Program-made: the position numbers and the translations under genes
Shown here: positions 1 through 13,064 of the stretch, piece after piece
How positions within the stretch are numbered: position 1 is the first letter of the stretch
How the letters are laid out: every line of letters begins with the position of its first letter
The notes under the pieces: model-generated
What the model saw: only the letters and a program-made list of their open reading frames with translations
Database searches by the model: none
What the model was told of the DNA's origin: nothing
NCBI RefSeq assembly: GCF_005116715.1
Contig: NZ_SWCI01000002.1
Coordinates: 169,120 to 201,119 of the forward strand
Reading direction: 5' to 3'
DNA length: 32,000 bases
DNA from: Ferrimonas sediminicola
GTDB lineage: Bacteria; Pseudomonadota; Gammaproteobacteria; Enterobacterales; Shewanellaceae

Positions 1-116
1 TGGTGCCGGAGGCGCACCAGGTCACCATCGAGATGAAATTGGGGCTGCTGCTGCTCCCCTTTGCCCCGGTGATCAGGCAGGGGATAGAGACTCAACTGGA
101 TACCCTGCTAATCTAA
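1..116 (+). CDS. 3' end of an upstream gene (partial); C-terminus resembles the SRPBCC/START-like protein at 3982-4479
   Basis: The open frame from position 3 reads ...VTIEMKLGLLLLPFAPVIRQGIETQLDTLLI and stops at TAA 114-116. The pattern is similar to ...VNRVEMQMKSALPFIGNKLTRFVHDEIERM of the 165-aa protein downstream. Confidence 0.3.
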   Translation, partial: VPEAHQVTIEMKLGLLLLPFAPVIRQGIETQLDTLLI

Positions 117-150
117 ACCAAGTTTGACCAACCTCAATTTTTCCCCGCCG

Positions 151-170
151 TTTAGAATGTCCCTTCTAAA
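151..170. promoter_or_regulatory. Perfect 7-bp inverted repeat TTTAGAA-N6-TTCTAAA upstream of the phasin operon; candidate operator
   Basis: TTTAGAA at 151-157 and TTCTAAA at 164-170, 54-73 nt upstream of ATG 224. A TetR-family regulator is encoded in the locus. Confidence 0.3.
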
Positions 171-223
171 GATCCACCGTACTCTGACCATGACAAAGAA
201 AACTTTCCCGTCATGGAGGCAAC

Positions 224-712
224 ATGTTGAAGCGACTGTTTGGATCAAAAAATGCGGATGCTGACACCCAGGAAGCACTGTATCGGAAAATCTGGTTGGC
301 CGGTCTGGGCGCCTACTCCAAAGGGGCCGAAGAGATCAGCCAGCTGTCGGAAAGGGGCCTGAGCCTGTTCGATGAACTGCTGGAGCGGGGCAAGGAGCTG
401 GAATCCTCTACCGTCGAGCGCGTCTCCGAAGCGTCCACTCAGACCAAGGAAGCGTTCGAGGCCCAACTGCACAGCCAGGTCCAGAAGGTGACCGGACTGG
501 AGGCTGAACAACTCGAAGAGCTGGAGTCCAAGATCGACCGGCTGACCACGCTGGTGGACAAGATGGCGGAGGAGAAGGCCGCCGCCAAGGCCGCCCCCAA
601 GGTCACCGCGACCCCGAAGACGCCACCTAAAGCAGCCCCTAAGGCCGCCCCTAAGCCTGCCGCCAAACCAGCGGCAAAGACCCCCCGCCGTACCACCAAT
701 AAGCCCGCCTGA
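224..712 (+). CDS. PhaF-like granule-associated protein (phasin domain plus short AKP-rich histone-H1-like tail)
   Basis: GGAGG RBS lies 5 nt upstream. The N-terminal motif YRKIWLAGLGAYSKG matches the conserved RKIWLAGLGIYSK core of Pseudomonas PhaF/PhaI as I remember it. There is a coiled-coil middle and a C-terminal KAAAKAAPK...PKAAPKAAPKPAAKPAAK tail. Confidence 0.75.
   Translation: MLKRLFGSKNADADTQEALYRKIWLAGLGAYSKGAEEISQLSERGLSLFDELLERGKELESSTVERVSEASTQTKEAFEAQLHSQVQKVTGLEAEQLEELESKIDRLTTLVDKMAEEKAAAKAAPKVTATPKTPPKAAPKAAPKPAAKPAAKTPRRTTNKPA
575..709 (+). repeat. Low-complexity Ala/Lys/Pro coding repeats (AAPK/PAAK units)
   Basis: Residues 118-162 of the 162-aa protein: KAAAKAAPKVTATPKTPPKAAPKAAPKPAAKPAAKTPRRTTNKPA. 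Confidence 0.8.
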
Positions 713-732
713 AGCCGCGGTGTAAGGAGCAC

Positions 733-1086
733 ATGATGACTGAACAAGTGAAGGGAATGCCACCCGTAGAAGGCGTTGACAACGAGCAGCTGGCTCGAAA
801 CATCTGGCTCGCCGGGCTGGGTGTCTACAGCCGCAGCATCGAGGAGGCCAGGGAGCTGGAGGGCAAATCCGGTGACCTGTTCGAGAAGCTGGTTGAGCGC
901 GGCCGCGAAGTGGAAGCCAACACCCGAGCCCGGGTAGAGGACAACCTGGATCGCGCCAACGAGGAGGTGGAAGCCCGGGTGCATAACCTGTTCTACCGCC
1001 TGAGCGGCATCCATCCGCGTCAGATTGAGGAACTGAACGCCAAGGTAGACAAACTGGCTGACGCCATCGAGAAACTGGCCAAGTAG
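733..1086 (+). CDS. PhaI-like phasin (phasin domain only)
   Basis: AAGGAG RBS. ARNIWLAGLGVYSRS is a paralogous motif to the upstream gene. The 117-aa protein has no AKP tail, and the gene lies 20 nt after the previous stop. Confidence 0.7.
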   Translation: MMTEQVKGMPPVEGVDNEQLARNIWLAGLGVYSRSIEEARELEGKSGDLFEKLVERGREVEANTRARVEDNLDRANEEVEARVHNLFYRLSGIHPRQIEELNAKVDKLADAIEKLAK

Positions 1087-1102
1087 GCCTGAAGGAGGGC
1101 GC

Positions 1103-2500
1103 ATGACCACCTTGTCCCTGTCCGAGCTGGTGTTCCTGCTTTTTGAAAGCGACTCGACACCGCTGCATGTGTCAGGGCTGATGATGCTGCGCCCTCCTGA
1201 GGATTTGCCCGATTTCGGGTCGCGCCTTCACCGCCAACTGGTCCGCTGCGGACCGGTGGTGGCCCCCTTCGATCAGGTGATCCACTTCACCCCCTCCAGC
1301 TTGCCCCGCTGGCAGGCGGCGGATGAGGTGGATCTCTCCTACCATGTTCGCCTGGCGAAGCTACCCAGGCCCGGTGATGGCGATCAGTTGATGGAACTGG
1401 TGGCGCGGATCCACAGCTACCGACTGGATCGCAGCCGCCCCCTGTGGGAGCTGTGGGTGATCGACGGGCTGGAGAGTGGCGAGATCGCCCTGGTGATGAA
1501 GTTCCACCATGCCCTGACTGACGGCCTGCGCGCCGCCAGCCTGGTGAGAGACAGTTTCGACCTAACCGAGCGCCTGGGTTACCTGGTGCCCTTCTGGCAG
1601 CTCGGCAGCCGCATCGACGAGGAGCAGCCGGATCTGAGCCAGTGGCTGCAGACCCTGACCCCCGCCTTCTGGGCAAAGCAGGCGAGGATCGGCCTGGACA
1701 GCCTCAAGCTGCTGTGCCTGGCCACCACCGATCGGCTGTGCCTGACCCACAGTGGTATCCGCCTGCCCTTTACCGCACCGCGTACCCCCTTTAACCACAT
1801 CAGCCCGGAGCGGGCCAAGCAGGTGACCCTGGCCAAACTGCCCGCCAGCCGCCTCAACCGCTTGGCGCTGCACACCGGCGGCCGTTTCGATGATGTGGTG
1901 CTGACCCTGTGTGACATGGCGCTGCACCGTTACCTCAGGGTACACAACTGGGGGGACAGTGACCCGCTGGTGGCCATGGTGCCCCTGCATTCCGCCGACA
2001 GCGACGAGCGATTGCATATGATCTCGGTCGGCCTGGTAGAGCTTGGACGACCGGGACTGACACCGATGCAGCGGCTTAAGGCGATCGGCCGCACCAACCG
2101 GCGCATCCGCGAACAGACCCGGCGCACCAGCGCCCGCGCCTACAACCGCTACTCGTCGGTGGTCAATGCCCTGTCGCTGGTGGCGGCCCGCTACGACAGC
2201 CAGCAGTGGCTGCCGCCGGCGGCGAACATGCTGATCACCGAGGTGGACGCGTCGGATCACCCCCTCTCCCTGCGCGGTGCCAGGATGACCGCCAGCTACC
2301 CACTGTCGCTGCTGATGCCGGGGCAGACCCTCAACATGACCCTGCTGCGCTACGATGGCATGCTCCACTTTGGCCTGGTGTGCTGTCGCCACTCACTGCC
2401 GGGATTTGAATCTTTCGACCGTTATCTGGAGGAGGGCTTGGAAGAGCTTGAGTCTTCAGTGTTTTCTCACATATCATCTAGCCTTTCTCCCGCAAACTAA
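1103..2500 (+). CDS. Wax ester synthase/diacylglycerol acyltransferase (WS/DGAT family)
   Basis: 465 aa. The catalytic HHxxxDG motif is present as KFHHALTDG. Length and N-terminal LxxxDxxxxxxxPLHVxGL pattern are typical of the family. Confidence 0.85.
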   Translation: MTTLSLSELVFLLFESDSTPLHVSGLMMLRPPEDLPDFGSRLHRQLVRCGPVVAPFDQVIHFTPSSLPRWQAADEVDLSYHVRLAKLPRPGDGDQLMELVARIHSYRLDRSRPLWELWVIDGLESGEIALVMKFHHALTDGLRAASLVRDSFDLTERLGYLVPFWQLGSRIDEEQPDLSQWLQTLTPAFWAKQARIGLDSLKLLCLATTDRLCLTHSGIRLPFTAPRTPFNHISPERAKQVTLAKLPASRLNRLALHTGGRFDDVVLTLCDMALHRYLRVHNWGDSDPLVAMVPLHSADSDERLHMISVGLVELGRPGLTPMQRLKAIGRTNRRIREQTRRTSARAYNRYSSVVNALSLVAARYDSQQWLPPAANMLITEVDASDHPLSLRGARMTASYPLSLLMPGQTLNMTLLRYDGMLHFGLVCCRHSLPGFESFDRYLEEGLEELESSVFSHISSSLSPAN

Positions 2501-2509
2501 GGAAAGTGG

Positions 2510-3430
2510 ATGTCCAGCTGGCGTGCCAAGGCGCTCAACAAGGTGCTCTACCGGGCGATTCGAGGCCGCCTGGAGCGGTGTAACGACATCCTGTCGGTCA
2601 GGGGAGTGATAGCCGGGCTGGACAAGCTGAACTCCTACATAGGCACCCCGGCGGGGCTGGAGTGGATTGAGGACAGTCTCTCCGGCGTTCCATGTCAGTG
2701 GATCGTCAAAGGCCGCCCGGCCGGGGACAGCGTGCTGCTCTACTTTCATGGTGGTGGCTTCTGCTTCCGCTCTCCCCAGGTCCACAGCGCCATGCTCCAC
2801 TACCTCAGCAGGCACAGCCGGGCCCGCGGGGTGATGGTCAACTATCGGTTGGCCCCAGAGTTTCCCTTTCCTGCCGCCCTCCACGATTGCTTTACCGCCT
2901 ACCGCACCCTGCTGGAGCAAGGGGTGCCCCCGGAGAAGATCATCCTCGGGGGCGATTCCGCCGGCGGCAACCTGGCGCTGGCGACCATGGTGAAGTGCAA
3001 GGAGAAGGGGTTGCCTCAGCCGTTGGCGGCGCTGCTGTTCTCGCCGGCGCTGGACCTGACCATGAACAGCCAGTCCGCCTTCGTCATGCGTAACGAGGAT
3101 CCCTTCTTCGACCTGGGCAGCCTGATGCTGCTGCGCAACTCCTACCTCAATGGCCACACTCCCTGTGACCCGCTGGCATCACCCCTGGCGGCGGATCTCA
3201 GCGACCTGGCACCGATAATGGTGCACGTGGGCAGCCTGGAGATCCTGCTGGATGATTCGGTCAGGCTGAAGTCCAGGGTGAGGCGCCAGGGCGGGGTGGC
3301 TGACCTGACCATCTGGCCAGGCCTGCCCCATGTATTCACCCTGTTTCAGCAACTGCCCGAAGCCCGGGAAGCGATGGAGCGGTGTGGCCGCTTTATTGAT
3401 CAGTGCCGGCAAGATTCAGCTGCCGGGTAA
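2510..3430 (+). CDS. Alpha/beta hydrolase, hormone-sensitive-lipase family (family IV) esterase/lipase
   Basis: HGGG oxyanion motif (LLYFHGGGFCF), GDSAGG nucleophile elbow, and a C-terminal His region (GLPHVF). Starts 9 nt after the WS/DGAT stop. Confidence 0.85.
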   Translation: MSSWRAKALNKVLYRAIRGRLERCNDILSVRGVIAGLDKLNSYIGTPAGLEWIEDSLSGVPCQWIVKGRPAGDSVLLYFHGGGFCFRSPQVHSAMLHYLSRHSRARGVMVNYRLAPEFPFPAALHDCFTAYRTLLEQGVPPEKIILGGDSAGGNLALATMVKCKEKGLPQPLAALLFSPALDLTMNSQSAFVMRNEDPFFDLGSLMLLRNSYLNGHTPCDPLASPLAADLSDLAPIMVHVGSLEILLDDSVRLKSRVRRQGGVADLTIWPGLPHVFTLFQQLPEAREAMERCGRFIDQCRQDSAAG

Positions 3431-3980
3431 GGTGAGGGTTGACCAGGGAGATCAGCCGTTGGGCCCCGCGCTCAACCGCCTTGTCGTCGCTGTCGCCTGA
3501 ATCGAAACAGAGCCAGGAGAGCCCCAGCAGGAATAGGTTGTCCGCCAACTGCTCCCGCTGCTCCCCCTTTACCTGCAGCAACGCCTTCTCCTCCAGCGCC
3601 TCCAGGCTGTGGGCGGTGAAGCTGTGCAGCTGCTTCATCAGCCGCTGGGCGCCGCGGTTGCCCTGGGGCGGTGCCACCGTCTGCAGATCCAGGAACAGGA
3701 AACGGTAGTGCAGGCACACCCGCAGCAGGGAGAGCAGGAACACCCAGTACTCCGACTCGCTTATCGCCTCCAGGTCCACCCTGGCCAGCAGGGTGCCCAC
3801 GGCCAGTTCACACTCCTTGGAGAGCTGGTTGATGATCTCCTCCTTGCCCTTGAAGTGGTAATAAAGGTTGCCCGGGCTGATCTCCAGCTCGGCGGCGATG
3901 TCCAGGCTGGTGATGTTGGCGGAACCGTGATGGTTGAACATCGCCAGGCTGGTGTCGAGGATACGCTGTCGGGTTCCCAT
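3393..3980 (-). CDS. TetR/AcrR-family transcriptional regulator
   Basis: N-terminal HTH RQRILDTSLAMFNHHGSANITSLDIAAELEISPGNLYYHFKGKEEI. 195 aa. The 3' end overlaps the convergent esterase gene by 38 bp. Confidence 0.85.
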   Translation of the reverse strand: MGTRQRILDTSLAMFNHHGSANITSLDIAAELEISPGNLYYHFKGKEEIINQLSKECELAVGTLLARVDLEAISESEYWVFLLSLLRVCLHYRFLFLDLQTVAPPQGNRGAQRLMKQLHSFTAHSLEALEEKALLQVKGEQREQLADNLFLLGLSWLCFDSGDSDDKAVERGAQRLISLVNPHLTRQLNLAGTDQ

Positions 3981-3981
3981 A

Positions 3982-4479
3982 TCAGGCCGGCTCTGTGGTC
4001 AGTTGGGTCTGCAGGTAGTGCCATTCGGCGTTGGCCATCCGCTCGATCTCGTCATGGACGAAGCGGGTCAGCTTGTTGCCGATGAAGGGCAGGGCGCTTT
4101 TCATCTGCATCTCCACCCGGTTGACACACCCCTGCTTTGCGGGTTCGAACACCATGGTGCCGGTGATCTTGATCGGCACCCCCACCAGTTCCACCGACAT
4201 CTCGCAACGGTAGAGCGGCGCCCGGTCCAGCTGCCACTCCTCCACCTGCTTCACCAGGTTCTGCGATCCGAGCAGCCGCTTGAGCACCGCCGGCACATTG
4301 CTGGTCACCTCACGCTTAGTGGAGAGGGCGACGCCGCTGGGCTCGGCGAGATGTTGCGGAATACGCACCCGCTGACACCCCAGTGCCTCATACTTCTGCT
4401 GGATCATCTCAGGCTCGACGAAGAAGCGCAGCAGTTCCTCGGTGGAGCAGGCGTAGGTGTGGGTGAGTTCCAATTTCAT
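3982..4479 (-). CDS. SRPBCC/START-like (polyketide cyclase/lipid-binding fold, DUF2505-like) protein
   Basis: The ATG at 4477-4479 gives 165 aa (MKLELTHTYACSTEELLRFF...). The longer track ORF extending to 4977 would overlap the reductase gene. The gene sits 8 nt after the reductase stop and 1 nt before the TetR start. Confidence 0.55.
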   Translation of the reverse strand: MKLELTHTYACSTEELLRFFVEPEMIQQKYEALGCQRVRIPQHLAEPSGVALSTKREVTSNVPAVLKRLLGSQNLVKQVEEWQLDRAPLYRCEMSVELVGVPIKITGTMVFEPAKQGCVNRVEMQMKSALPFIGNKLTRFVHDEIERMANAEWHYLQTQLTTEPA

Positions 4480-4487
4480 TGTGTCTC

Positions 4488-6467
4488 CTAAAAGTGAATG
4501 CCCCGGAGCATCGCTGCCAGGCCTATCATCTGTTGCTGTTGGCTGTAATTCAGTTTCTCTTCCTGTACTTCGCCGGACTCGGGGAACATCCGGTAGATCA
4601 TGTTCATGGTTATCTCCGCCAGCCTGGGGGAGAGGGCGTGCATCACCGCCCCCAGCACCCCGAGGCGGGTGGCCACCCGCTTGGGCTGGTGAACCACCGC
4701 CTTGGCCACCAGGTCGGCGGCCTGCTCGGCGCTGAGGGTGGGGACCGCCTGGTAGAGCTGGGTCGGGGCGATCATCGGCGTATCCACCAGCGGCATGTTG
4801 ATGGTGGTGAAGCGCACCCCCTGATCCGAGTACTCGGCGGCGGCGCAGCGACAGAAGGATTCCAGGGCGGCGTTGGAGGCCACATAGGCGCTGAATCTGG
4901 GGGCGTTGGTGAGCACGCCGATGGAGGAGATGTTGATCACCTGGCCGGACTGCGCCTTGGCCATGGCCGGCAGGCACCCCAGTATCAGCCGCAGGGCGCC
5001 GAAGTAGTTGATGGCCATGGTGCGCTCATAGTCGTGCACCCGTTCGGTGGAGGCCGCCACCGAGCGGCGGATGGAGCGCCCGGCGCAGTTGATCAGCAGA
5101 TCCACCCGCTCGTGGGCGCCGAGGATCTTGGCCAGCATCGCCTTGGCGACCACCTTGTCGGTGAGGTCGCAGCTGAAGCACAGCGCCTTGCCTCCCAGGG
5201 CTCGCACCTGCTGCTCGGTCTCCTTCAGCCGCTCGCTGTTTCGTGCCACCAGCAGCAGTTTGGCCCCGTAGGGCGCCAGCCGCAGGGCGGTGGCCCGGCC
5301 GATGCCGGAGCTGGCGCCGGTGATCAGCACCACCTTGTTGGTCAGCCTGTGGCGCAGGCTGTCATCCAGGAACAGGTCCGGATCCAGGTTGCGCTCCCAG
5401 TAATCCCAGATGGGCACCACGTAGCTGGCCAGGTCCGGACAACGGATGCCGGCGTCCCGCAGCAGCGCCTGGGTGGACTGGCTGTCGAAGCGGGTGGGAT
5501 AGTTGAGCAGGCTCAGGGTCTCCGGCGGGATGCCGTAATCACTGACGATGCGCCGGGCCAGCTTGACCAGGGGCGGGTACTGGCTGGCCAGCTGCAGCCA
5601 GGGCCGGGGCAGCAGGCTGCTGAGGTTGAGATTGAATCCCAGCGCCAGGGTCGGCCCATGGCCCGCCTTGGAGAGCAGGTTGAGCACCTGGCCGGCGCTG
5701 TAGGGACGGGGATCGGTCAGGTGGAAGCAGCGCCGGTCCAGCTCGGGCTGACGGATCAGGTAGGCCATGGCCTCGGCGACAAAGTCCACCGGCACGATGT
5801 TGATCGGGCCCCCTTCGAACCCCACCAGCGGAAACCAGCTGGGCAGGGCGTTGCGGATCTTCTGCAGCAGCTTGAAAAAGTAGTAGGGGCCCTGGATGCG
5901 GTTGGCTTCGCCGCTGTGGCTGTCGCCCACCAGGATGCCGGGGCGGTAGATCCGCCAGGGCAGCGCGCCTTGCTGGCGGACCGCCTTTTCGCACAGGTGC
6001 TTGGAGAGGAAGTAGGGATGGGTCAGCTGCTCCGCTTCCTGGAACATGGTCTCATCGAAACAGCCGCGGTAGAGGCCGGCGGCGGCGATGGAGCTGAGAT
6101 GGTGAAAGCACTGTGCCCCGAGATCGGCGGCGCAGGCCAGGGCGGCCTCGGTGGCCTGGACATTGGCCTTGACCACACCGTTGCCGTCGCGGCGGAAGTC
6201 GTTGTAGGCCGCCAGGTGGATGAAGTGGTCGATCTGCCCCCTCAGCCGGTCGCGGTTGGCCTGGGACAGCCCCAGTGCCGGGTCCTTGAGACTGCCGGCC
6301 ACGGGGTGAATCTGCCCGTGGGCGTCCAGTTCGTCGGCCAGGGCGTCGAGACGCGCCTGTCCCTCCTGGTCGCGGACCAGGCAGTAGAGGGGGGCGCCAC
6401 CGCTGAGCAGACGACGGATCAACTGCCGCCCCAGCAAGCCGGTGGCTCCGGTTACAAAGTAGCTCAT
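4488..6467 (-). CDS. Two-domain fatty acyl-CoA/fatty aldehyde reductase (N-terminal FAR/thioester-reductase-like Rossmann domain plus C-terminal SDR domain)
   Basis: 659 aa. N-terminus: VTGATGLLG and YFLSK (YxxxK). C-terminus: VLITGASSGIGRA, LINCAG, INISS and YVASN. Size and architecture match the roughly 660-aa Marinobacter-type reductases as I remember them. Confidence 0.8.
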   Translation of the reverse strand: MSYFVTGATGLLGRQLIRRLLSGGAPLYCLVRDQEGQARLDALADELDAHGQIHPVAGSLKDPALGLSQANRDRLRGQIDHFIHLAAYNDFRRDGNGVVKANVQATEAALACAADLGAQCFHHLSSIAAAGLYRGCFDETMFQEAEQLTHPYFLSKHLCEKAVRQQGALPWRIYRPGILVGDSHSGEANRIQGPYYFFKLLQKIRNALPSWFPLVGFEGGPINIVPVDFVAEAMAYLIRQPELDRRCFHLTDPRPYSAGQVLNLLSKAGHGPTLALGFNLNLSSLLPRPWLQLASQYPPLVKLARRIVSDYGIPPETLSLLNYPTRFDSQSTQALLRDAGIRCPDLASYVVPIWDYWERNLDPDLFLDDSLRHRLTNKVVLITGASSGIGRATALRLAPYGAKLLLVARNSERLKETEQQVRALGGKALCFSCDLTDKVVAKAMLAKILGAHERVDLLINCAGRSIRRSVAASTERVHDYERTMAINYFGALRLILGCLPAMAKAQSGQVINISSIGVLTNAPRFSAYVASNAALESFCRCAAAEYSDQGVRFTTINMPLVDTPMIAPTQLYQAVPTLSAEQAADLVAKAVVHQPKRVATRLGVLGAVMHALSPRLAEITMNMIYRMFPESGEVQEEKLNYSQQQQMIGLAAMLRGIHF

Positions 6468-6523
6468 CTGCGGCTCCTTCCTTGTGGCCCGGGGAGCGCT
6501 CCTGCGCCCCTGAGATGGCAGGC

Positions 6524-6542
6524 TAACTTTTCACCTAAGTTA
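6524..6542. promoter_or_regulatory. Inverted repeat TAACTT-N7-AAGTTA upstream of the reductase operon; candidate TetR operator
   Basis: TAACTT at 6524-6529 and AAGTTA at 6537-6542, 57-75 nt upstream of the reductase start codon (6467, minus strand). Confidence 0.3.
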
Positions 6543-6750
6543 CCCCCGAAGGTAATTAAGTAGTTGACCTAAATCAATATCCTTCGAGGTATTCCCCTAT
6601 AAAAGACGGGAATCTTTGTTTCTGTTATGGAAATGACCGGGGCCGGGATCGCCCAGAAAAACAGCGTTCGCGAGCGCGGTGGTGGTGAGGGGCTCGGCCC
6701 TTGCTCTAAGATGAGTGGTTTTTTCAAAATGGCGAGGTCAGAGGAACAAA

Positions 6751-7617
6751 ATGAACCAGCCCAAGCGAATCGATGGACGGCGCATTGCCGATGAACAGGT
6801 GGCCCAGATCGCCCAACGGGTGGCGGCCTTGACCGAGCAGGGCAAGCGTCCTCCCGGGCTGGCGGTGGTGATGGTGGGGGACAACCCTGCCAGTGACGTC
6901 TATGTTCGAAACAAGATTCGCCGCTGTGAGCAGGCGGGGATCCTCAGCCGGGAGCACCGCCTGGATGAGCGGACCACCGAGGAGGATCTGCTGGGGCTGC
7001 TGGACAGCCTGAACCAGGACCCGCAGATCGACGGCATCCTGGTGCAGCTGCCGTTGCCGGCCCACCTGGAGGAGGGGCGGATCCTGAAACGGATCTCACC
7101 CGCCAAGGACGTGGACGGGTTCCACCCGGTCAACGTCGGCCTGCTGGGCATTGGCGATGCGCGCGCCCTGGTGCCCTGCACCCCGGCGGGCTGCGTCATC
7201 CTGGCCAAGGAGGTGCTCGGCGATCTCACCGGCAAGCACGTGGTGGTGGTGGGCCGCTCCAACATCGTCGGCAAGCCGGCGGCGCAGCTGTTTTTGGCCG
7301 AGGATTGCAGCGTCACACTGGTCCACTCCAAGAGCGCCAACGGCGCCGAACTGGCGCGCCAGGCCGACATCCTGGTGGTGGCGGTCGGACGGCCGCAGAT
7401 GGTGGATGAGAGTTGGGTCAAGCCCGGCGCGGTGGTGATCGATGTGGGCATCAACCGCATCGATACCGGCGAGGGGACCCGGCTGGTGGGCGACGTGGAT
7501 TATCAGCGGGTGGCCCCGGTCGCCGGAGCCATCACCCCGGTACCCGGCGGGGTGGGGCCGATGACCATCGCCGGCCTGCTGAACAACACCCTGACCGCCT
7601 ATGAGGCGGTGGAGTAG
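6751..7617 (+). CDS. folD: Bifunctional methylenetetrahydrofolate dehydrogenase/methenyl-THF cyclohydrolase
   Basis: The ATG at 6751 follows a GAGGAA RBS. PGLAVVMVGDNPASDVYVRNK, DGILVQLPLP, DVDGFHP and PVPGGVGPMT are colinear with E. coli FolD. Confidence 0.92.
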   Translation: MNQPKRIDGRRIADEQVAQIAQRVAALTEQGKRPPGLAVVMVGDNPASDVYVRNKIRRCEQAGILSREHRLDERTTEEDLLGLLDSLNQDPQIDGILVQLPLPAHLEEGRILKRISPAKDVDGFHPVNVGLLGIGDARALVPCTPAGCVILAKEVLGDLTGKHVVVVGRSNIVGKPAAQLFLAEDCSVTLVHSKSANGAELARQADILVVAVGRPQMVDESWVKPGAVVIDVGINRIDTGEGTRLVGDVDYQRVAPVAGAITPVPGGVGPMTIAGLLNNTLTAYEAVE

Positions 7618-7718
7618 GGCTGAGGCCCGCGCCTAGCACAAAAATGATCGGCGAAGGTCAACAGCCACCCCTGGGTGGGTTAGACTGGAGCCGATGAGTT
7701 AAACACAGGAATCAATTC

Positions 7719-8027
7719 ATGGTATTACCTGGATTTGAAGGGCATGAAACCACCGAGTTCGCACTGATCCGGCTGCGGGTCGGCTTCAAGCTGGCGCCTG
7801 AGCATGTGTCCGGGCTGGAGCGGCTGCTGGAACAGTATATGGACGCGGCGATCTCCGACTCCAACGTGATGTCGTGCCAGTACCTGGATGGCGAGATGCA
7901 GCTGGAGATGAGCTTCTTCGGTGCCGATCAGACCACGGTCAAGATGGAGCTGGCCCGGCTGCACAAGGTGGTGCAGAGCCTGCTCAATCCCACCCCGGTG
8001 TTTACCGTGACCGTCGACAAGGAGTAG
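7719..8027 (+). CDS. Hypothetical 102-aa protein
   Basis: AGGAA RBS and host-like GC. Its stop lies 2 nt before the patatin start, whose AAGGAG RBS is inside its 3' end. I recognised no motif. Confidence 0.5.
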   Translation: MVLPGFEGHETTEFALIRLRVGFKLAPEHVSGLERLLEQYMDAAISDSNVMSCQYLDGEMQLEMSFFGADQTTVKMELARLHKVVQSLLNPTPVFTVTVDKE

Positions 8028-8029
8028 CG

Positions 8030-8905
8030 ATGACCGAGGACAGGGATGGGTCCGGCGCCGCGGCGCACGGTGGCAGAAGAGAGGCCCTGGTTGTGGAGGG
8101 CGGGGCGATGCGCGGCATCTTCGCCGCCGGGGTGCTGGACAGGTTCATCGAACGGGATCATTTCGCCTTCGATGGCTGCTTCGGCGTCTCCGCCGGCTCC
8201 ACCGCGCTGGCCGCCTACCTCTCCGGCCAGCGCGGACGTACCCGGCGCATCATCGAGGATTACTCCTGCCGGCCCGAGTTCATCAACCCCTGGCGGTTCC
8301 TGTGCGGCGGCCACCTGCTGGACCTGGACTGGCTGTGGCCCATCACCCTGACCGAGCTGCCCTTCGACTTCGACGCCTTCGAGGCCCGCGGCATTCCCCT
8401 CTACATTGGCCTGACCCGGGCCAGCGACGCCGCGCCCCGTCAGCTTAAAGCCGACCGCCACAACCTGGCGATGGCGATGAAGGCCTCCTGCTCGCTGCCG
8501 CTGGCCTACCGCGAGTTTGTCTCGTTGGAGGGGGAAGCCTACACCGACGGCGGCGTCTCCGACTCCATCCCGGTGGAGGCGGCCTGGCGGGCGGGCTTTA
8601 CCGAGATCACCGTGGTGCTGTCCCAGAGGGCCGGTTACCTGAAGTCGCCGCCGCGATTCCCCGCCCTGATGCGCTGGGCGTTTCGCCGCCATCCCCAGCT
8701 GGGCCGGGCGATGCTTGAGCGCCACCGCCACTACAACCGCACCCTGGCGTTTCTCGCCTCCCCGCCACCGGGCTGCACCGTCCGGCTGATCCAGCCGCCG
8801 CCGCAGTTTCCGGTGGGCCGGCTGACCAAGGACTCCGCTCTGCTGGGGCTGGGCTATCAGATGGGCGCAGCGGCGGCGGATGGCTACCTGGCAGGACTTG
8901 GCTGA
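8030..8905 (+). CDS. Patatin-like phospholipase
   Basis: The ATG at 8030 has an AAGGAG RBS. Oxyanion GGAMRG, nucleophile GVSAGS (GxSxG) and catalytic Asp motif TDGGVSD. Confidence 0.8.
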   Translation: MTEDRDGSGAAAHGGRREALVVEGGAMRGIFAAGVLDRFIERDHFAFDGCFGVSAGSTALAAYLSGQRGRTRRIIEDYSCRPEFINPWRFLCGGHLLDLDWLWPITLTELPFDFDAFEARGIPLYIGLTRASDAAPRQLKADRHNLAMAMKASCSLPLAYREFVSLEGEAYTDGGVSDSIPVEAAWRAGFTEITVVLSQRAGYLKSPPRFPALMRWAFRRHPQLGRAMLERHRHYNRTLAFLASPPPGCTVRLIQPPPQFPVGRLTKDSALLGLGYQMGAAAADGYLAGLG

Positions 8906-9780
8906 TGGGCCTCTGCTGGTCGGCGGTCGCAAAGGGGATGGCTGAGGCGCTGAACGCACCGGTGTCCCTGTCCTCGCCGCAGCCGGTCTGCGGCGGCGAC
9001 ATCAACCCGGCGTTTTCGGTCAGCGACGGCCACAACCTCTGGTTTGTGAAGGTCAACCGCCGCAGCCACGGCGCCCTGTTCGAGGAGGAGGCCGAGGGGC
9101 TGATCGCCCTGGGCACTCTCGCCCCTCAGCCGCTGTGCTGGGGGGAATCCGGCGGCTGGCAGTACCTGGTGCTGCCCTGGATGGAGCTGGGGCGCCGGGG
9201 TGACGAGCGGGCGTTGGGCCAGGCTCTGGCCCAGTTGCACCAACAGCCCTCCAGGGACCGCCGCTACGGCTGGCAGGGCGACAACCACATCGGCACCACG
9301 GTGCAGCTCAACGGCTGGAGCGACAGTTGGCAGGGCTTCTGGTGGCGGCGGCGGCTGGAACCCCAGCTGACCTGGGCCATCGAGGCGGGCGCCGCCCGGC
9401 TTCGTCGCTGGCAGCGGCCCCTGAAGGAGGCCAGCGACGCCCTGCTGGCGGATCACCAGCCGCAGCCCTCGTTGCTGCACGGTGACCTGTGGCGGGGCAA
9501 CGCCGGCTTCGACGGTGACCGCCCGGTGATCTTCGACCCCGCCTGCTACCAGGGGGACAGGGAGGCCGACCTGGCGATGACCCGGCTGTTTGGCGGCTTC
9601 TCCCCCTCCTTCTATCAGGGCTACGACAGTACCTGGCCACTGGCGCAGGACTGGCAGCGCCGAGAGGCGCTGTACAACCTCTATCATCAACTCAACCACC
9701 TCAACCTGTTCGGAGAGGGCTACCTGGATAGGGTGCTCTGTGGCTGCCAAGAGGTGATGCGCCAGGCCGAACGGGTTTAG
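8905..9780 (+). CDS. Fructosamine/ketosamine kinase family protein (YniA-like)
   Basis: CGGDINPAF...WFVKVN N-terminus, HGDLWRGN catalytic loop and DPACYQGDREADLAM. The start overlaps the patatin stop (TGATG). Confidence 0.85.
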   Translation: MGLCWSAVAKGMAEALNAPVSLSSPQPVCGGDINPAFSVSDGHNLWFVKVNRRSHGALFEEEAEGLIALGTLAPQPLCWGESGGWQYLVLPWMELGRRGDERALGQALAQLHQQPSRDRRYGWQGDNHIGTTVQLNGWSDSWQGFWWRRRLEPQLTWAIEAGAARLRRWQRPLKEASDALLADHQPQPSLLHGDLWRGNAGFDGDRPVIFDPACYQGDREADLAMTRLFGGFSPSFYQGYDSTWPLAQDWQRREALYNLYHQLNHLNLFGEGYLDRVLCGCQEVMRQAERV

Positions 9781-9826
9781 CCTGCCGGCCGTTACAGCCA
9801 TTCCCAACGCCGTCTGGTGATATTGC

Positions 9827-9900
9827 GTCACAGAGGGTCATCAAATGTCCCAAATCCAACACTCTGTGACCTGCCGCCTACCAAACCCCTGTGAAAGGGG
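9827..9900 (+). other. Two stem-loops downstream of the kinase gene: GTCACAGAG-N26-CTCTGTGAC and ACCCCT-GTGAA-AGGGGGT
   Basis: Perfect 9-bp arms at 9827-9835 and 9862-9870, plus a second hairpin at 9885-9901. Neither is followed by a U-run, so terminator function is uncertain. Confidence 0.3.
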
Positions 9901-10283
9901 GTAACTTAAACAATCAGTTAAATCAGTTAGATGTGGCCTGCCTAAGATGGCAACGACGAGCGCCCCCGCGCGTTATGGCGAAGCTTGGCCAACGTTCAGC
10001 CAGAACATTAATCAAGCCTTTAAAATTCAATAAGCTATAGGTTGGCAAAGACTAACCTCTCGGCAAAGCAAGATACTGTGCGTATGCACAGGTGTTGGTT
10101 GAATCCGCCTTTCCGCAAGCAACCGCCGCCTTGCACGCAGAACCGGGGTCACCAAGGCGTTGGGGTTCTAGCCTATCAACCTGAAAGGGTTGAAAAAGAT
10201 GGCGCCAAGCAAGAAACCCTGGTTTGAGGATAGGCGGACAACTTCAATGAGCGAAAGGCGGATTGGTTCCGCATATTAAACTG
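9899..10283 (+). other. Intermediate-GC flank with degenerate attC-like relics and GTTRRRY-type cores; no coding capacity evident
   Basis: Tandem AATCAGTTA x2 (9912-9929) runs into GTTAGATGTGGCC (9926-9938). GGCAAC...ACGAGCGCC...AAGCTTGGCC (9949-9990) resembles the left half of attC2, and the 9-mer AAGCTTGGC is shared with attC1. GGCAAAGACTAAC lies at 10043-10055. Confidence 0.4.
10102..10264. repeat. Long imperfect palindrome (about 165 bp) with 12-bp perfect terminal inverted repeat
   Basis: AATCCGCCTTTC (10102-10113) pairs with GAAAGGCGGATT (10253-10264). The interior is colinear and complementary in blocks: AACCGGGG/ACCCTGGTT, CCGCC/GGCGG, and tip CAACC-TGAAAG-GGTTG at 10177-10192. Confidence 0.6.
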
Positions 10284-10304
10284 TTATGTGGCAAAGGGAA
10301 TAAA

Positions 10305-10598
10305 TTGACTATTACAGCAAAAATAACTTTTTTGACGATTCCCAGACCTCCATATGGATATAGGTACTTTGGTAACAATTGCTGGATGCGGATGGACTCC
10401 GCAAAATTTACTGATTTAGCATGTGCATTGAGTTTTGAAGAAGGTAAAGAGTTTTTCGACGGTGATACTGCAGACGTAGAACTAGTATTCTACAACGGTG
10501 AGCCACTAGTTGAATCATTCGAAGAGGGAATGCAGTTCGACTTAAGGGTTCTCGATCTAAAAGTTGCAGAAGGAACCCTCACCAATGTATCTATTTAG
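10305..10598 (+). CDS. Cassette 1: small beta-rich protein with an EF-Tu domain-3-like sequence pattern
   Basis: A TTG start at 10305 follows an AAGGGA RBS inside the cassette; the track start at 10263 lies outside the cassette boundary. AKITFLT...GYRY...DGDTADVELVFYNGEPLVESFEEGMQFDLRVLDLKVAEGTLTNV parallels EF-Tu SEVYILS...GYRPQ...[40 protein letters not shown] as I remember it. Confidence 0.45.
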   Translation: MTITAKITFLTIPRPPYGYRYFGNNCWMRMDSAKFTDLACALSFEEGKEFFDGDTADVELVFYNGEPLVESFEEGMQFDLRVLDLKVAEGTLTNVSI

Positions 10599-10601
10599 CC
10601 A

Positions 10602-10709
10602 GCCACATAACAAACGCATGAATGAATGGACGTCTAAAGCTTGGCTGTCACTCGTTCCTCGCTAATTTTAGCCAAGCTTAATCCGCCCATTATGCGGGCG
10701 TTAGTTGCC
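10602..10709 (+). repeat. attC site 1 (about 108 bp, VCR-like)
   Basis: R'' is GCCACATAAC followed by AAACGC. The central stem is AAGCTTGGCT/AGCCAAGCTT. The end is CCGCCCATTATGCGGGCGTTAGTT with R' GTTAGTT at 10700-10706. Confidence 0.85.
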
Positions 10710-10720
10710 AAGGATAGCTC

Positions 10721-11182
10721 ATGGAATATTTATATCGCGGTGTTAGTGAAGAATTTTTTGAAAAGTTAGGTGGTAAATTATCACCTAAAAAAATGCATGA
10801 AAATTTTGCTACTTATGCGTCAGCAGGTGATCCACATGCTTTATGTGGTTCTGGAGTTGAGTGTGGCGAATCTACACTTAATACCACGATACTTCACCAA
10901 TGGGAGCAACTTGGTTTGCCTACATCCGGGGTGTCTTCATCACCAGATAAAGAACGTGCAAAATTTTATGCTTTAAACGGTGGCAAGGTCAATAAAGGTT
11001 ATGTTTTTCAAATTTCTGTCACAAAACTAAAAGAGCATGATGTATCAATATATATTGTTAACGATTTAGTGCCTTACCCTGCTATCCCGGAAGATAATGA
11101 GCATATTCTAGTTGCTAGTGATTTTGGAGCGATACCTACCCAAGCAATCGTTAGTGTTGAGTCGGTTGATATAGGCAACTAA
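10721..11182 (+). CDS. Cassette 2: putative R-S-E class mono-ADP-ribosyltransferase-like protein (153 aa)
   Basis: AAGGA RBS. Three motifs occur in ART order and spacing: LYRGV (aa 4-8), GVSSSPDKERAKFYA (STS-like, aa 69-83) and PEDNEHILV ((Q/E)xE-like, around aa 123-131). The stop TAA lies inside the attC2 R'' box. Confidence 0.45.
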   Translation: MEYLYRGVSEEFFEKLGGKLSPKKMHENFATYASAGDPHALCGSGVECGESTLNTTILHQWEQLGLPTSGVSSSPDKERAKFYALNGGKVNKGYVFQISVTKLKEHDVSIYIVNDLVPYPAIPEDNEHILVASDFGAIPTQAIVSVESVDIGN

Positions 11183-11280
11183 CAAACGCCTTAAAAAATG
11201 GACGCAAAACGCTTGGCTTGCGCTCATTCTTCGCTAATTTTAGCCAAGCATTTTCCGCCTCTTAGGCGGGCGTTAAATTC
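11174..11280 (+). repeat. attC site 2 (about 107 bp, VCR-like, paralogous to attC1)
   Basis: GGCAACTAAC-AAACGCC...AACGCTTGGCTT...CGCTAATTTTAGCCAAGC...CCGCCTCTTAGGCGGGCGTTAAAT, with R' GTTAAAT at 11272-11278. Confidence 0.85.
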
Positions 11281-11294
11281 TAAGGGAGTACTGA

Positions 11295-12227: not shown

Positions 12228-12255
12228 ACGCGCCGCTGCTTAGAGCGTTATAAGT
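12195..12255 (+). repeat. attC site 3 (short, about 61 bp)
   Basis: R'' is GAATTTAAC. The imperfect inner palindrome is GCAGTCGGACGCG/CGCGCCGCTGC. R' GTTATAA lies at 12247-12253. The stop codon of the cassette 3 ORF is inside it. Confidence 0.75.
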
Positions 12256-12265
12256 TTGAGGAAAT

Positions 12266-12931: not shown

Positions 12932-13064
12932 AACTTATAACAAACAATTAAAGAGGGATTCTCAACGCTTGGCATTTTTGCTTCTACTTCAATTTTAGTG
13001 GTTACGGTACAATGCTTTAGGTTGGGTGGTAGCGTTGCTCACCCCTTAATTGGGCGTTGATATG
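12931..13064 (+). repeat. attC site 4 (about 130 bp, closest to the Vibrio cholerae repeat type)
   Basis: AAACTTATAAC-AAACAATTAAAGAGGGATTCTCAACGCTTGGCATTT...CACCCCTTAATTGGGCGTTGATA. This parallels the VCR consensus TAACAAACGCCTCAAGAGGGACTGTCAACGCGTGGCGTTT...CCCCTTAGGCGGGCGTTA as I remember it. Confidence 0.75.

What the first reader, a model, noticed from the sequence alone, without database searches (positions are those of the whole stretch)
1..6570. pha-cluster-like locus rebuilt around wax-ester enzymes: PhaF/PhaI-type phasins linked to WS/DGAT, esterase, acyl-CoA reductase, SRPBCC protein and TetR
Two tandem phasin genes carry the (K/N)IWLAGLG(A/V)YS core of Pseudomonas PhaF/PhaI, and the first also has an AKP-rich histone-H1-like tail. 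They sit directly upstream of, and are apparently co-transcribed with, a WS/DGAT (HHALTDG) and an HSL-family esterase (HGGG, GDSAG). A convergent operon encodes a two-domain fatty acyl-CoA reductase, an SRPBCC lipid-binding-fold protein and a TetR regulator. The gene logic parallels phaC-phaZ-phaC-phaD plus phaF-phaI: polymerase becomes acyltransferase, depolymerase becomes esterase, and PhaD becomes TetR. No PHA synthase is visible. This suggests phasin-family proteins recruited to coat, and possibly tether to the nucleoid, wax-ester or TAG bodies rather than PHA granules. As far as I know, that role is not well characterised for this phasin family.
Basis: partly seen in the sequence, partly recalled or inferred. 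Interest (0 to 1): 0.62.

Follow-up and report, generated by a model that had tools for sequence, protein, structure and literature searches.

The report
Phasin-coated wax-ester storage gene cluster
A marine Ferrimonas bacterium, like many other marine Gammaproteobacteria, links the coat proteins, regulator and operator known from Pseudomonas bioplastic (PHA) granules to wax-ester/fat-making genes, which gives the first concrete candidates for the proteins that organise fat droplets in Gram-negative bacteria.

Summary
Observation confirmed; interpretation supported by comparative genomics, with no expression or localisation data. The window (Ferrimonas, contig C39) encodes: PHA_gran_rgn protein | operator | phasin with a basic AKP tail, tail-less phasin, WS/DGAT, HSL esterase; convergent: Maqu_2507-type acyl-CoA reductase, StART-like DUF2505, TetR.

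New here:
1. The TetR is the reciprocal best hit (34%) of Pseudomonas-type PhaD.
2. A palindrome TTAGWA-N6-TWCTAA at 152-169 fits the published PhaD operator layout. It lies upstream of the first phasin gene in 59 of 80 related loci, and upstream of phaC1/phaI in Pseudomonas-like genomes.
3. The eight-gene cluster is syntenic in 16 further Ferrimonas/Paraferrimonas genomes.
4. In 251 genomes of the order, this phasin type occurs in exactly the 26 that carry WS/DGAT. Only 6 of those 26 have a PhaC (6.4 expected by chance).
5. Five complete relatives have the cluster but no class I/II/III PHA synthase. Three relatives with PhaC lack phasins, WS/DGAT and reductase together.
6. This genome's own PhaC, on another contig, has its own Phasin_2 gene.

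Best reading: a PhaD/PhaF/PhaI-type granule module serving wax-ester/TAG bodies. The scan has noted similar phasin-with-lipid-gene themes on other DNA (PhaR/PhaP type, other phyla). New variant of a known kind; untested experimentally.

The parts
1..116 (+). 3' end of the PHA_gran_rgn (PF09650) gene, 120 aa, which starts 246 nt before the window (G000:C39:168873-169235)
   Evidence: PF09650 at 83.3 bits. It holds the same position upstream of the phasin pair in Pseudomonas-like pha loci (32% identity) and in nearly all Ferrimonas and Photobacterium loci.
151..170 (.). Candidate PhaD-type operator TTTAGAATGTCCCTTCTAAA (core TTAGAA-N6-TTCTAA at 152-169), 54 nt upstream of the phas1 start
   Evidence: It is the only such site in the 32-kb window. 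It is conserved, with a compensating arm change, in other Ferrimonas. The exact motif lies upstream of a phasin gene in 59 of 80 related loci; 66 of 69 sites lie there against 0.6 expected in shuffles. The same motif lies upstream of phaC1 or phaI in Pseudomonas-like loci L117, L130, L131 and L133. The layout fits the published PhaD operator (PMC7590123).
224..712 (+). phas1: PF05597 phasin with a basic Ala/Lys/Pro tail (PhaF-like architecture)
   Evidence: Tailed orthologues occur in all related loci, with net charge +4 to +21 in the Ferrimonas, Paraferrimonas, Corallincola, Vibrio and Photobacterium loci read; the Plesiomonas MAG tail has net 0.
733..1086 (+). phas2: tail-less PF05597 phasin (PhaI-like architecture)
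   Evidence: The AF2 model has helices at 17-91 and 95-116, pLDDT 80.8. Amphipathic segments reach muH 0.5. The C-terminal helix has an a/d heptad of I/L/V residues, read directly from the sequence.
1103..2500 (+). WS/DGAT acyltransferase (wax ester / triacylglycerol synthase)
   Evidence: PF03007 at 176.6 bits and PF06974 at 65.2 bits. HHALTDG at residue 135. TIGR02946 scores 302.9 bits, just under its 309.95 cut-off.
2510..3430 (+). HSL-family (Abhydrolase_3) esterase/lipase, the likely mobilising hydrolase
   Evidence: PF07859 at 182 bits. HGGG, GDSAG and HVF motifs. A paralogous WS/DGAT-esterase pair lies in the same order on contig C6.
3393..3980 (-). PhaD-like TetR regulator; its 3' end overlaps the 3' end of the esterase gene by 38 nt
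   Evidence: PF00440 plus PF13972. It is 34% identical to the PhaD of a phaC1ZC2D locus (E 1.6e-25) and is that protein's reciprocal best hit in G000.
3982..4440 (-). DUF2505, a StART-like/SRPBCC lipid-binding-fold protein
   Evidence: PF10698 at 89 bits. AF2 pLDDT 90.5 and pTM 0.84. Foldseek best matches are Lam4 and Aster-A StART domains, then Ups1/PRELID and Bet v 1.
4488..6467 (-). Two-domain fatty acyl-CoA reductase of the Maqu_2507 / PRK07201 type
   Evidence: NF005539 at 832.6 bits against a cut-off of 549; NAD_binding_4 plus adh_short. Caveat: the SDR domain reads YVASN at 528-532, where 116 of 120 homologues have YV(A/S)SK.
6524..6542 (.). Second, different palindrome (TAACTT-N7-AAGTTA) in the reductase promoter region; significance not established
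   Evidence: Read directly. It is conserved only in relatives that are >85% identical and is not recognisable in F. aestuarii.

Best explanation
This is a self-contained neutral-lipid (wax ester, possibly also triacylglycerol) storage module. It uses the granule-organising parts known from Pseudomonas medium-chain PHA granules.

Proposed mechanism:
1. The two-domain reductase turns acyl-CoA into fatty alcohol.
2. The StART-like DUF2505 protein probably carries the hydrophobic intermediate.
3. WS/DGAT esterifies the alcohol (or diacylglycerol) with acyl-CoA.
4. The product accumulates in cytoplasmic bodies. These are coated by the two amphipathic-helix phasins, which probably oligomerise through their C-terminal zipper-like helix.
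5. The basic AKP tail of phas1 may tie the bodies to the nucleoid, as the PhaF tail does for PHA granules.
6. The HSL-family esterase mobilises the store.
7. The PhaD-like TetR protein binds the palindrome at 152-169 and controls the phasin-WS/DGAT-esterase operon, perhaps in response to an acyl-CoA-type ligand.

Shown here: gene content, catalytic motifs, predicted folds, synteny, phyletic coupling to WS/DGAT but not to PhaC, homology of the regulator, and conservation of the operator.

Inferred: coating, nucleoid tethering, co-transcription, the ligand, whether regulation is activation or repression, and the lipid product.
For: Gene families and motifs:
- All assignments rest.

Synteny:
- The eight-gene cluster is conserved in order and orientation in 16 further genomes, down to about 33-45% protein identity.
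- It is also present in named Paraferrimonas, Corallincola (no PHA_gran_rgn hit), a Plesiomonas MAG (contig cut at both ends) and Vibrio.

Neighbourhood of the closest phasin relatives:
- Of the 80 closest phasin loci in public genomes, 61 have WS/DGAT or the reductase within 10 kb.
- Only 1 of the 80 has a PhaC within 10 kb.

Order-level phyletic sample (251 genomes, at least 90% complete):
- This phasin type is in 26 genomes and WS/DGAT is in the same 26, with no discordant genome. They span 10 genera in 8 families.
- PhaC is in 62 genomes and overlaps the 26 in only 6, against 6.4 expected.

Within the genus sample:
- G001, G009, G012, G014 and G023 have the cluster but no PhaC_N and no class III PhaC.
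- G003, G013 and G016 have PhaC but lack phasins, WS/DGAT and the reductase together.
- G000's own PhaC sits next to a Phasin_2 gene on another contig.

Regulator and operator:
- PhaD homology and reciprocal best hit.
- Operator conservation in wax-ester-linked loci and at phaC1/phaI in Pseudomonas-like loci.
- The published PhaD operator layout matches.

Phasin architecture:
- Helical model, amphipathicity, and a conserved pairing of one tailed with one tail-less phasin.

Other support:
- DUF2505 has a StART-like fold.
- Alteromonas shows a variant with a patatin lipase in place of the HSL esterase, and its complete genome has no PhaC.
Against: - There are no expression, localisation or lipid data.
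- G000 does have a PHA synthase, so a dual role on PHB granules cannot be excluded for this strain.
- Both phasins score below the TIGR01837 PhaF/PhaI cut-off: 62.8 and 37.2 bits against 94.7. They match only the N-terminal half of PF05597.
- The cluster's reductase has Asn in place of the SDR catalytic Lys, a change confined to close Ferrimonas relatives. A paralogue on the same contig keeps Lys. The first reduction step might therefore be impaired or delegated.
- In Photobacterium the cluster lacks WS/DGAT, which lies elsewhere in the genome. In one genus (g7) the phasins are dispersed and not adjacent to WS/DGAT. Adjacency is therefore not universal.
- Related genomes are not independent observations.
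Confidence: 0.7

Rival explanations
1. The two phasins are ordinary PHA-granule proteins serving the genome's PhaC on contig C12. Their position beside wax-ester genes is a historical accident or reflects only shared regulation of carbon storage.
For: G000 has a class I-type PhaC. PF05597 and PF09650 are annotated as PHA-granule families. The same module sits in phaC1ZC2D loci of Pseudomonas-like genomes.
Against: The PhaC locus has its own Phasin_2 gene. Twenty of 26 phasin-carrying genomes in the order lack PhaC, and five close relatives have the full cluster with no class I/II/III synthase. Three PhaC-positive Ferrimonas lack the phasins. Co-occurrence with WS/DGAT is perfect. Only 1 of the 80 closest loci has a PhaC nearby.
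Confidence: 0.1
2. The phasins act mainly as regulatory partners of the PhaD-like TetR protein, not as a structural coat. In Pseudomonas putida, PhaF binds PhaD and DNA. Here the phasins would titrate or co-activate the regulator according to lipid load, and the droplets themselves would be coated by something else or by phospholipid alone.
For: A PhaF-PhaD interaction and PhaF effects on pha transcription are published (PMC7590123). The operator, the regulator and the tailed phasin are conserved together.
Against: Two abundant-type amphipathic helical proteins per locus, and up to nine copies per genome in one genus, fit a structural coat better than a co-regulator. The two roles are not exclusive in Pseudomonas either.
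Confidence: 0.12
3. The cluster does not build storage bodies. It makes fatty alcohols or wax esters for another purpose, such as envelope lipids or export. The phasin-like proteins would then have an unrelated role, for example nucleoid-associated or stress-related.
For: Photobacterium clusters keep the reductase, the phasins and the esterase but have no adjacent WS/DGAT. The reductase's SDR domain carries an unusual Lys-to-Asn change. No wax-ester phenotype is reported for Ferrimonas.
Against: Those Photobacterium genomes do carry WS/DGAT elsewhere. A synthase-hydrolase pair together with coat-type proteins and a PhaD-type switch is the logic of a turnover store. The Alteromonas variant swaps in a DUF3336-patatin lipase; from general knowledge, that architecture is typical of triacylglycerol lipases.
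Confidence: 0.08

Closest known systems
Pseudomonas putida pha cluster: phaC1-phaZ-phaC2-phaD with divergent phaI-phaF (PhaD activator, PhaF/PhaI phasins)
   Same: Shared features, seen directly in Pseudomonas-like loci L117 and L129-L133:
- a PHA_gran_rgn gene, then an operator, then a pair of PF05597 phasins, one tail-less and one with an AKP-rich basic tail;
- a PF13972-type TetR regulator, 34% identical and a reciprocal best hit, which is the last gene of the biosynthetic operon;
- the same palindrome, TTAGWA-N6-TWCTAA;
- a synthase and a hydrolase in one cluster.
   Different: - The synthase is WS/DGAT plus an acyl-CoA reductase instead of PhaC1/PhaC2.
- The hydrolase is an HSL-family esterase instead of PhaZ.
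- A StART-like DUF2505 protein is added.
- The tail is on the first phasin gene, not the second, and is short (47 aa against about 120-250 aa).
- The phasins are co-oriented with the synthase and lie directly upstream of it.
- The phasins fall on the other side of a 99% SH-aLRT split from PhaI/PhaF and score below the TIGR01837 cut-off.
Marinobacter aquaeolei VT8 wax-ester pathway (Maqu_2507 reductase plus WS/DGAT enzymes)
   Same: The enzyme types are the same: a two-domain acyl-CoA reductase of about 660 aa and a WS/DGAT with HHxxxDG. [quoted passage not shown]
   Different: No role for phasins, a PhaD-type regulator or DUF2505 is described for that pathway in the literature I could search. 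I could not retrieve the Marinobacter locus to compare its neighbours. The Ferrimonas reductase has YVASN in place of YVASK.
Rhodococcus lipid-droplet proteins MLDS and TadA
   Same: The functional idea is the same. A small abundant droplet protein with a basic region ties triacylglycerol droplets to genomic DNA and improves stress survival (PMC5504291, listed).
   Different: From general knowledge these are unrelated protein families; I did not test this here. They occur in Gram-positive actinobacteria, store TAG not wax ester, and have no PhaD-type regulator.
Sediment metagenome scaffolds described by Galván et al. 2023 (PMC10351704)
   Same: That paper mentions in passing WS/DGAT scaffolds that also carry a Maqu_2507-like reductase (about 59% identity), a 'polyhydroxyalkanoic acid system family protein' and a 'putative phasin'. 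This is evidently the same module.
   Different: There the genes were read as PHA-related neighbours. No link to lipid bodies, PhaD or an operator was proposed, and no phyletic test was made.

Membership tests
Pfam PF05597 Phasin (PhaF/PhaI-type phasins) | Score above the Pfam gathering threshold (28.8 bits) | tested here: met
   phas1 scores 41.5 bits and phas2 57.4 bits. Only profile positions 13-90 of 126 are matched.
TIGR01837 PHA_granule_1 (PhaI/PhaF subfamily domain) | Score above the curated cut-off (94.7 bits) | tested here: not met
   62.8 and 37.2 bits. Genuine Pseudomonas-type PhaI/PhaF score 130-150 bits on PF05597 over the whole profile. The window proteins are divergent relatives, not PhaI/PhaF orthologues.
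PhaF of Pseudomonas | C-terminal AKP-rich, histone-H1-like, strongly basic tail | tested here: met
   The phas1 tail is 47 aa: A 32%, K 21%, P 21%, net +10. It is conserved in orthologues. It is shorter than in PhaF (176-251 aa after the matched domain, net +25 to +42, in the Pseudomonas-like loci read).
PhaF of Pseudomonas | N-terminal amphipathic helix followed by a short leucine-zipper-type helix | tested here: inconclusive
   The AF2 model of phas2 has a long helix (17-91) and a second helix (95-116) at pLDDT 80.8. Amphipathic moments reach 0.55. An a/d heptad is read from the sequence. No oligomer or binding test was possible.
PhaF of Pseudomonas | Encoded beside phaC1-phaZ-phaC2-phaD and bound to PHA granules | tested here: not met
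   No PhaC lies on this contig; the only PhaC is on C12. The neighbours are WS/DGAT, an esterase and a reductase. Granule binding is not testable with these tools.
PhaD (TetR-family regulator of pha genes) | TetR_N plus the PF13972 C-terminal domain, and orthology to PhaD | tested here: met
   PF00440 at 43.8 bits and PF13972 at 65.6 bits. It is 34% identical (E 1.6e-25) to the TetR that follows phaC2 in L117, and is the reciprocal best hit in G000.
PhaD (TetR-family regulator of pha genes) | Operator of two 6-bp inverted half sites 8 bp apart in the phasin and synthase promoters | tested here: met
   TTTAGA-N8-TCTAAA at 151-170. The same motif occurs at phaC1/phaI in Pseudomonas-like loci and upstream of phasin genes in 59 of 80 loci. 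The layout is as in the PMC7590123 Fig. 1 legend. Binding itself was not tested.
PhaD (TetR-family regulator of pha genes) | Acts as a transcriptional activator | not testable with these tools
   This needs reporter or EMSA/in vitro transcription experiments.
WS/DGAT (wax ester synthase / diacylglycerol acyltransferase) | Catalytic domain with HHxxxDG plus the WS_DGAT_C domain | tested here: met
   PF03007 at 176.6 bits, PF06974 at 65.2 bits, HHALTDG at 135. TIGR02946 scores 302.9 bits, marginally under its 309.95 cut-off.
Maqu_2507-type two-domain fatty acyl-CoA reductase (PRK07201) | Full-length match over the NCBIfam cut-off, with both Rossmann domains | tested here: met
   NF005539 at 832.6 bits against 549, covering residues 1-659.
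Maqu_2507-type two-domain fatty acyl-CoA reductase (PRK07201) | Catalytic YxxxK in the C-terminal SDR domain | tested here: not met
   YVASN at 528-532. 116 of 120 homologues have Lys at that position; only P0018-P0021 have Asn. The N-terminal domain keeps YFLSK.
Hormone-sensitive-lipase family (Abhydrolase_3) esterases | HGGG oxyanion motif, GxSxG nucleophile and a C-terminal His | tested here: met
   HGGG at 80, GDSAG at 148, HVF at 274; PF07859 at 182 bits. The NCBIfam subfamily models score below their cut-offs.
SRPBCC / StART-like lipid-binding fold (DUF2505) | Helix-grip fold with a hydrophobic pocket | tested here: met
   PF10698 at 89 bits. AF2 pLDDT 90.5. Foldseek best matches are Lam4 and Aster-A StART domains, with TMq up to 0.77. 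The ligand is unknown.

The most novel reading that the evidence does not exclude
The set PHA_gran_rgn / PhaI-like / PhaF-like / PhaD plus its operator is not a PHA-specific system. It is a product-agnostic organiser of hydrophobic storage bodies in Gammaproteobacteria. In most marine lineages that carry this branch (Ferrimonas, Photobacterium, Vibrio, Alteromonas, Glaciecola, Colwellia and others) it builds, regulates and perhaps tethers to the nucleoid wax-ester/triacylglycerol droplets. These phasins would then be the long-missing lipid-droplet coat proteins of Gram-negative bacteria, with the Pseudomonas PHA version as one specialisation.
Probability: 0.55. Interest if true: 0.8.

Novelty: new variant of a known kind. 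Interest (0 to 1): 0.68.

Why it matters
To my knowledge, which proteins coat and organise wax-ester and triacylglycerol bodies in Gram-negative bacteria is essentially unknown. Droplet proteins have been characterised mainly in actinobacteria.

This locus and its many relatives give named, testable candidates:
- two coat proteins;
- a regulator with a defined operator;
- a StART-like carrier;
- a mobilising esterase.

It also gives natural test strains that lack any PHA synthase.

Wider consequences:
- 'Phasin' and 'PHA system protein' annotations in marine genomes and metagenomes would be systematically misleading about which carbon store is present. That matters for estimates of bacterial lipid storage in the ocean.
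- The parts could be used to engineer wax-ester production and droplet size in bacteria.

Tried and rejected
- Simple promoter/terminator scan: no convincing sigma-70 promoter and no internal terminator in the + operon. This is uninformative beyond being compatible with one transcript.
- tRNA or integration-site explanation for the cluster's position: no tRNA gene between the upstream integrase-like gene and the cluster, and G+C is unremarkable. Dropped.
- Class III PHA synthase as a hidden explanation for the PhaC-less genomes: none found.
- Even class-level sample of PF05597: too few carriers (15 of 400) to be useful statistically. It did yield the Pseudomonas-type comparator and further reductase-phasin loci.
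- Naming the reductase through its homologues: more than 8000 relatives, all labelled only 'SDR family oxidoreductase'. No Marinobacter entry was among the best 120, so identity to Maqu_2507 was not measured.
- Second palindrome upstream of the reductase: conserved only among near-identical relatives, so not interpretable.
- PDB sequence search for DUF2505: no hit. The fold search was needed.
- A fold search with the phasin model was not run, because long single helices give meaningless matches.
- Ten literature searches found no paper describing PF05597 phasins on wax-ester bodies, apart from one passing mention. One further search supplied the PhaD operator paper.

Full report
WHAT IS THERE

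The window is G000:C39:169120-201119 of a 3.97-Mb Ferrimonas genome. The cluster mates of its proteins are named F. futtsuensis and Ferrimonas sp. YFM.

ORF listing and profile searches give this gene map:
- A PHA_gran_rgn (PF09650) gene ending at window 116.
- phas1, 224-712 (+), 162 aa: PF05597 at 41.5 bits.
- phas2, 733-1086 (+), 117 aa: PF05597 at 57.4 bits.
- WS/DGAT, 1103-2500 (+): PF03007 plus PF06974, with HHALTDG.
- An HSL-family esterase, 2510-3430 (+): PF07859, with HGGG and GDSAG.
- Convergent with these, a two-domain acyl-CoA reductase, 4488-6467 (-): NF005539 at 832 bits.
- DUF2505, 3982-4440 (-).
- A TetR regulator, 3393-3980 (-): PF00440 plus PF13972.

The gaps in the + operon are 20, 16 and 9 nt, with no terminator-like site between those genes on that strand. 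The phas1 tail (residues 116-162) is 32% Ala, 21% Lys, 21% Pro, net charge +10.

THE REST OF THE GENOME

- The genome has one PHA synthase (576 aa, PhaC_N at 220 bits) on contig C12. A Phasin_2 (PF09361) gene lies directly beside it.
- The only two PF05597 genes in the genome are the window's pair.
- Nothing resembling PhaC lies on contig C39.
- The 8 kb of ORFs read upstream of the cluster include an integrase-like gene (weak Phage_integrase and Arm-DNA-binding hits) and large ORFs I did not identify.
- The genome also has two further WS/DGAT genes. One, on C6, is again followed by an HSL-esterase paralogue.
- A second full-length reductase lies on C39:48948-50924 (41% identity).

THE CLUSTER IS A CONSERVED UNIT

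The same eight genes occur in the same order and orientation in 15 other Ferrimonas species genomes and one sister-genus genome. Protein identities fall to about 33-45% for the regulator and DUF2505, about 37-38% for PHA_gran_rgn and about 42-48% for WS/DGAT.

Among named public genomes the arrangement recurs in:
- Paraferrimonas sedimenticola and two Vibrio species;
- Corallincola platygyrae, where no PHA_gran_rgn hit was found;
- a Plesiomonas MAG, whose short contig is cut at both ends.

THE WIDER PHASIN FAMILY

An alignment of these phasins was used to scan one genome per species. It gave 557 relatives, of which the best 80 loci were kept.
- 61 of the 80 have WS/DGAT and/or the two-domain reductase within 10 kb. 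Most of the remainder are cut by contig ends.
- Only one of the 80 (Exilibacterium) has a PhaC within 10 kb.

Variants seen:
- Photobacterium: PHA_gran_rgn, two phasins and the esterase, then intervening genes, then TetR-DUF2505-reductase. WS/DGAT lies elsewhere in the genome.
- Alteromonas: phasin, two unknown genes, a DUF3336-patatin lipase, DUF445, a PF13972 TetR and WS/DGAT. The complete A. gracilis J4 genome has no PhaC.
- Glaciecola, Colwellia and an Acidiferrobacterales MAG: a phasin pair plus the reductase, and several WS/DGAT genes that each have their own phasin.

PHYLETIC TEST

I searched the same 251 genomes of the order, all at least 90% complete, three times.
- This phasin type is present in 26 genomes.
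- WS/DGAT is present in exactly those 26 genomes and in none of the other 225. They span 10 genera in 8 families.
- PhaC_N is present in 62 genomes and overlaps the 26 in 6. Independence predicts 6.4.

In the closer sample of 41 relatives:
- Five genomes of 99-100% completeness (G001, G009, G012, G014, G023) carry the full cluster. They have neither PhaC_N nor a class III synthase.
- Three Ferrimonas with PhaC (G003, G013, G016) lack the phasins, WS/DGAT and the reductase together.

Related genomes are not independent observations, but the pattern recurs across families.

THE PARALLEL WITH THE PSEUDOMONAS pha CLUSTER IS HOMOLOGY, NOT ONLY ANALOGY

A Pseudomonas-like genome from the class sample (L117) has phaC1-(phaZ)-phaC2-TetR, with a convergent tailed phasin, tail-less phasin and PHA_gran_rgn. 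Three of four further relatives show the same; the fourth stretch showed only the phasin pair and PHA_gran_rgn within the part fetched.
- The window's TetR is 34% identical (E 1.6e-25) to that PhaD. It is PhaD's best hit in G000.
- The window's PHA_gran_rgn protein is 32% identical to its counterpart.

THE OPERATOR

Between PHA_gran_rgn and phas1 lies the palindrome TTTAGAATGTCCCTTCTAAA (151-170). It is the only match to TTAGWA-N6-TWCTAA in the 32-kb window.
- It is conserved in other Ferrimonas. One case has compensating changes in both arms.
- The exact motif lies within 260 nt upstream of a phasin domain start in 59 of 80 loci.
- 66 of the 69 sites in 1.5 Mb lie in that position, against 0.6 expected in shuffles.
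- The same motif, exact or with one mismatch, lies upstream of phaC1 in L117, L130, L131 and L133, and upstream of phaI in L131.
- The published PhaD operators in the PC1 and PI promoters are described as inverted 6-bp half sites separated by 8 bp. That is the layout of TTTAGA-N8-TCTAAA.
- PhaD is described there as an activator whose effector may be a CoA intermediate. PhaF is described as binding both PhaD and DNA (PMC7590123).

PHASIN ARCHITECTURE AND HISTORY

- Each locus pairs a tail-less phasin with one carrying a basic Ala/Lys/Pro (or Ala/Lys/Thr) tail of net charge about +4 to +21; the Plesiomonas MAG tail (net 0) is the exception. In Glaciecola the tail is a near-perfect (AAPKAAAK)n repeat.
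- AF2 models phas2 as a long helix (17-91) plus a second helix (95-116), mean pLDDT 80.8.
- Helical segments are amphipathic. The last helix carries an a/d heptad of I/L/V residues.
- In a tree of 156 phasin domains, a branch with 99% SH-aLRT support separates two groups.
  - One group holds Pseudomonas PhaI and PhaF plus a few others.
  - The other holds 135 sequences: 108 linked to wax-ester genes, 26 with neither gene type within 10 kb (several on cut contigs), 1 linked to both gene types, and 0 linked to PhaC only.
- phas1 and phas2 fall in two subclades. Each spans Ferrimonas, Plesiomonas, Corallincola, Vibrio and Photobacterium.
- This favours an old duplication independent of the PhaI/PhaF one. 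However, the alignment has only 116 columns, and the 80 loci were chosen for similarity to the query.
- The proteins are members of PF05597 but fail the TIGR01837 PhaI/PhaF cut-off.

THE OTHER PARTS

- DUF2505 folds with high confidence (pLDDT 90.5). Its best PDB matches are StART-like lipid-transfer domains: Lam4, Aster-A, Ups1/PRELID and Bet v 1.
- The reductase keeps YFLSK in its N-terminal domain. Its SDR domain has YVASN where 116 of 120 homologues have Lys.
- Only the four closest Ferrimonas sequences share the Asn. The paralogue on the same contig has YVASK. This is a real caveat for the first reduction step in this species group.

LITERATURE

Ten full-text searches found no description of PF05597 phasins, PhaD or PHA_gran_rgn acting on wax-ester or TAG bodies; an eleventh supplied the PhaD paper.
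- The only trace is a 2023 metagenome paper. It noted, as 'PHA-related' neighbours, a phasin, a 'PHA system protein' and a Maqu_2507-like reductase beside WS/DGAT genes (PMC10351704).
- A functional precedent exists in Rhodococcus, where the droplet protein MLDS ties TAG droplets to DNA (PMC5504291).
- Earlier notes of this scan report phasin/PhaR genes beside lipid genes without PHA synthase in other phyla. They also report a basic tail on a Halieaceae WS/DGAT. I did not test those notes.

VERDICT

The most likely reading (about 0.7) is a wax-ester/TAG storage module organised by PhaF/PhaI-type coat proteins under a PhaD-type switch. Coating, nucleoid tethering, co-transcription, the ligand and the lipid product remain inferences.

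Noticed in passing
window 4872-4886 (reductase residues 528-532): The SDR domain of the cluster's acyl-CoA reductase reads YVASN, where 116 of 120 homologues have Lys in that position. Only the four closest Ferrimonas sequences share the Asn. A paralogue at G000:C39:48948-50924 (41% identity) keeps YVASK.
   Followed up: partly
G000:C6:61506-63937 (L127:5507-7938): A second WS/DGAT (36% identity) is followed by a second HSL-family esterase (39% identity) in the same order as in the window. This synthase-hydrolase pair has no phasins. A third, lone WS/DGAT lies at C48:220578-221933.
   Followed up: partly
G000:C12:390887-392969 (L005:8885-10970): The genome's only PHA synthase (576 aa) lies directly beside a 110-aa Phasin_2 (PF09361) gene. 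PHB granules therefore appear to have their own coat protein.
   Followed up: yes
L046 (Photobacterium lutimaris) 8700-16450, and 16 other Photobacterium loci: The Photobacterium version of the cluster keeps PHA_gran_rgn, a long-tailed phasin, a tail-less phasin, the HSL esterase, TetR, DUF2505 and the reductase, but has no WS/DGAT in the cluster. Unrelated genes (1.7 to about 7 kb) are inserted between the two halves. The single WS/DGAT lies elsewhere in the genome.
   Followed up: partly
G025 and 11 other genomes of genus g7: One genus of the order carries 3-9 dispersed copies of this phasin type and 3-4 WS/DGAT genes per genome, with no PhaC. In G025, where I compared positions, none of the phasin genes lies near a WS/DGAT gene. 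The named Moritella loci (L064, L067, L069) show the same lone-phasin context.
   Followed up: no
L066 (Vibrio maritimus CAIM 1455) 9395-15600: In this genome phas1, WS/DGAT and the reductase each match in several separate pieces. This suggests frameshifts (decay) or assembly errors in an otherwise complete cluster.
   Followed up: no
L122 (G300:C30) 7515-11954: A compact variant in another family: PHA_gran_rgn, reductase and phasin on one strand, with a PhaD-like TetR and a second phasin nearby. A one-mismatch operator lies upstream of the second phasin. The genome has two WS/DGAT genes elsewhere and no convincing PhaC.
   Followed up: partly
L004:13035-14291 (about 0.5 kb upstream of the PHA_gran_rgn gene): An integrase-like ORF (weak Phage_integrase and Arm-DNA-binding hits) lies just upstream of the cluster. 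No tRNA gene is adjacent, and the cluster's G+C matches its surroundings.
   Followed up: partly
window 10001-13000: A stretch of about 40-43% G+C in a 60-65% G+C chromosome. Earlier notes of this scan describe it as an integron cassette array without an integrase.
   Followed up: no
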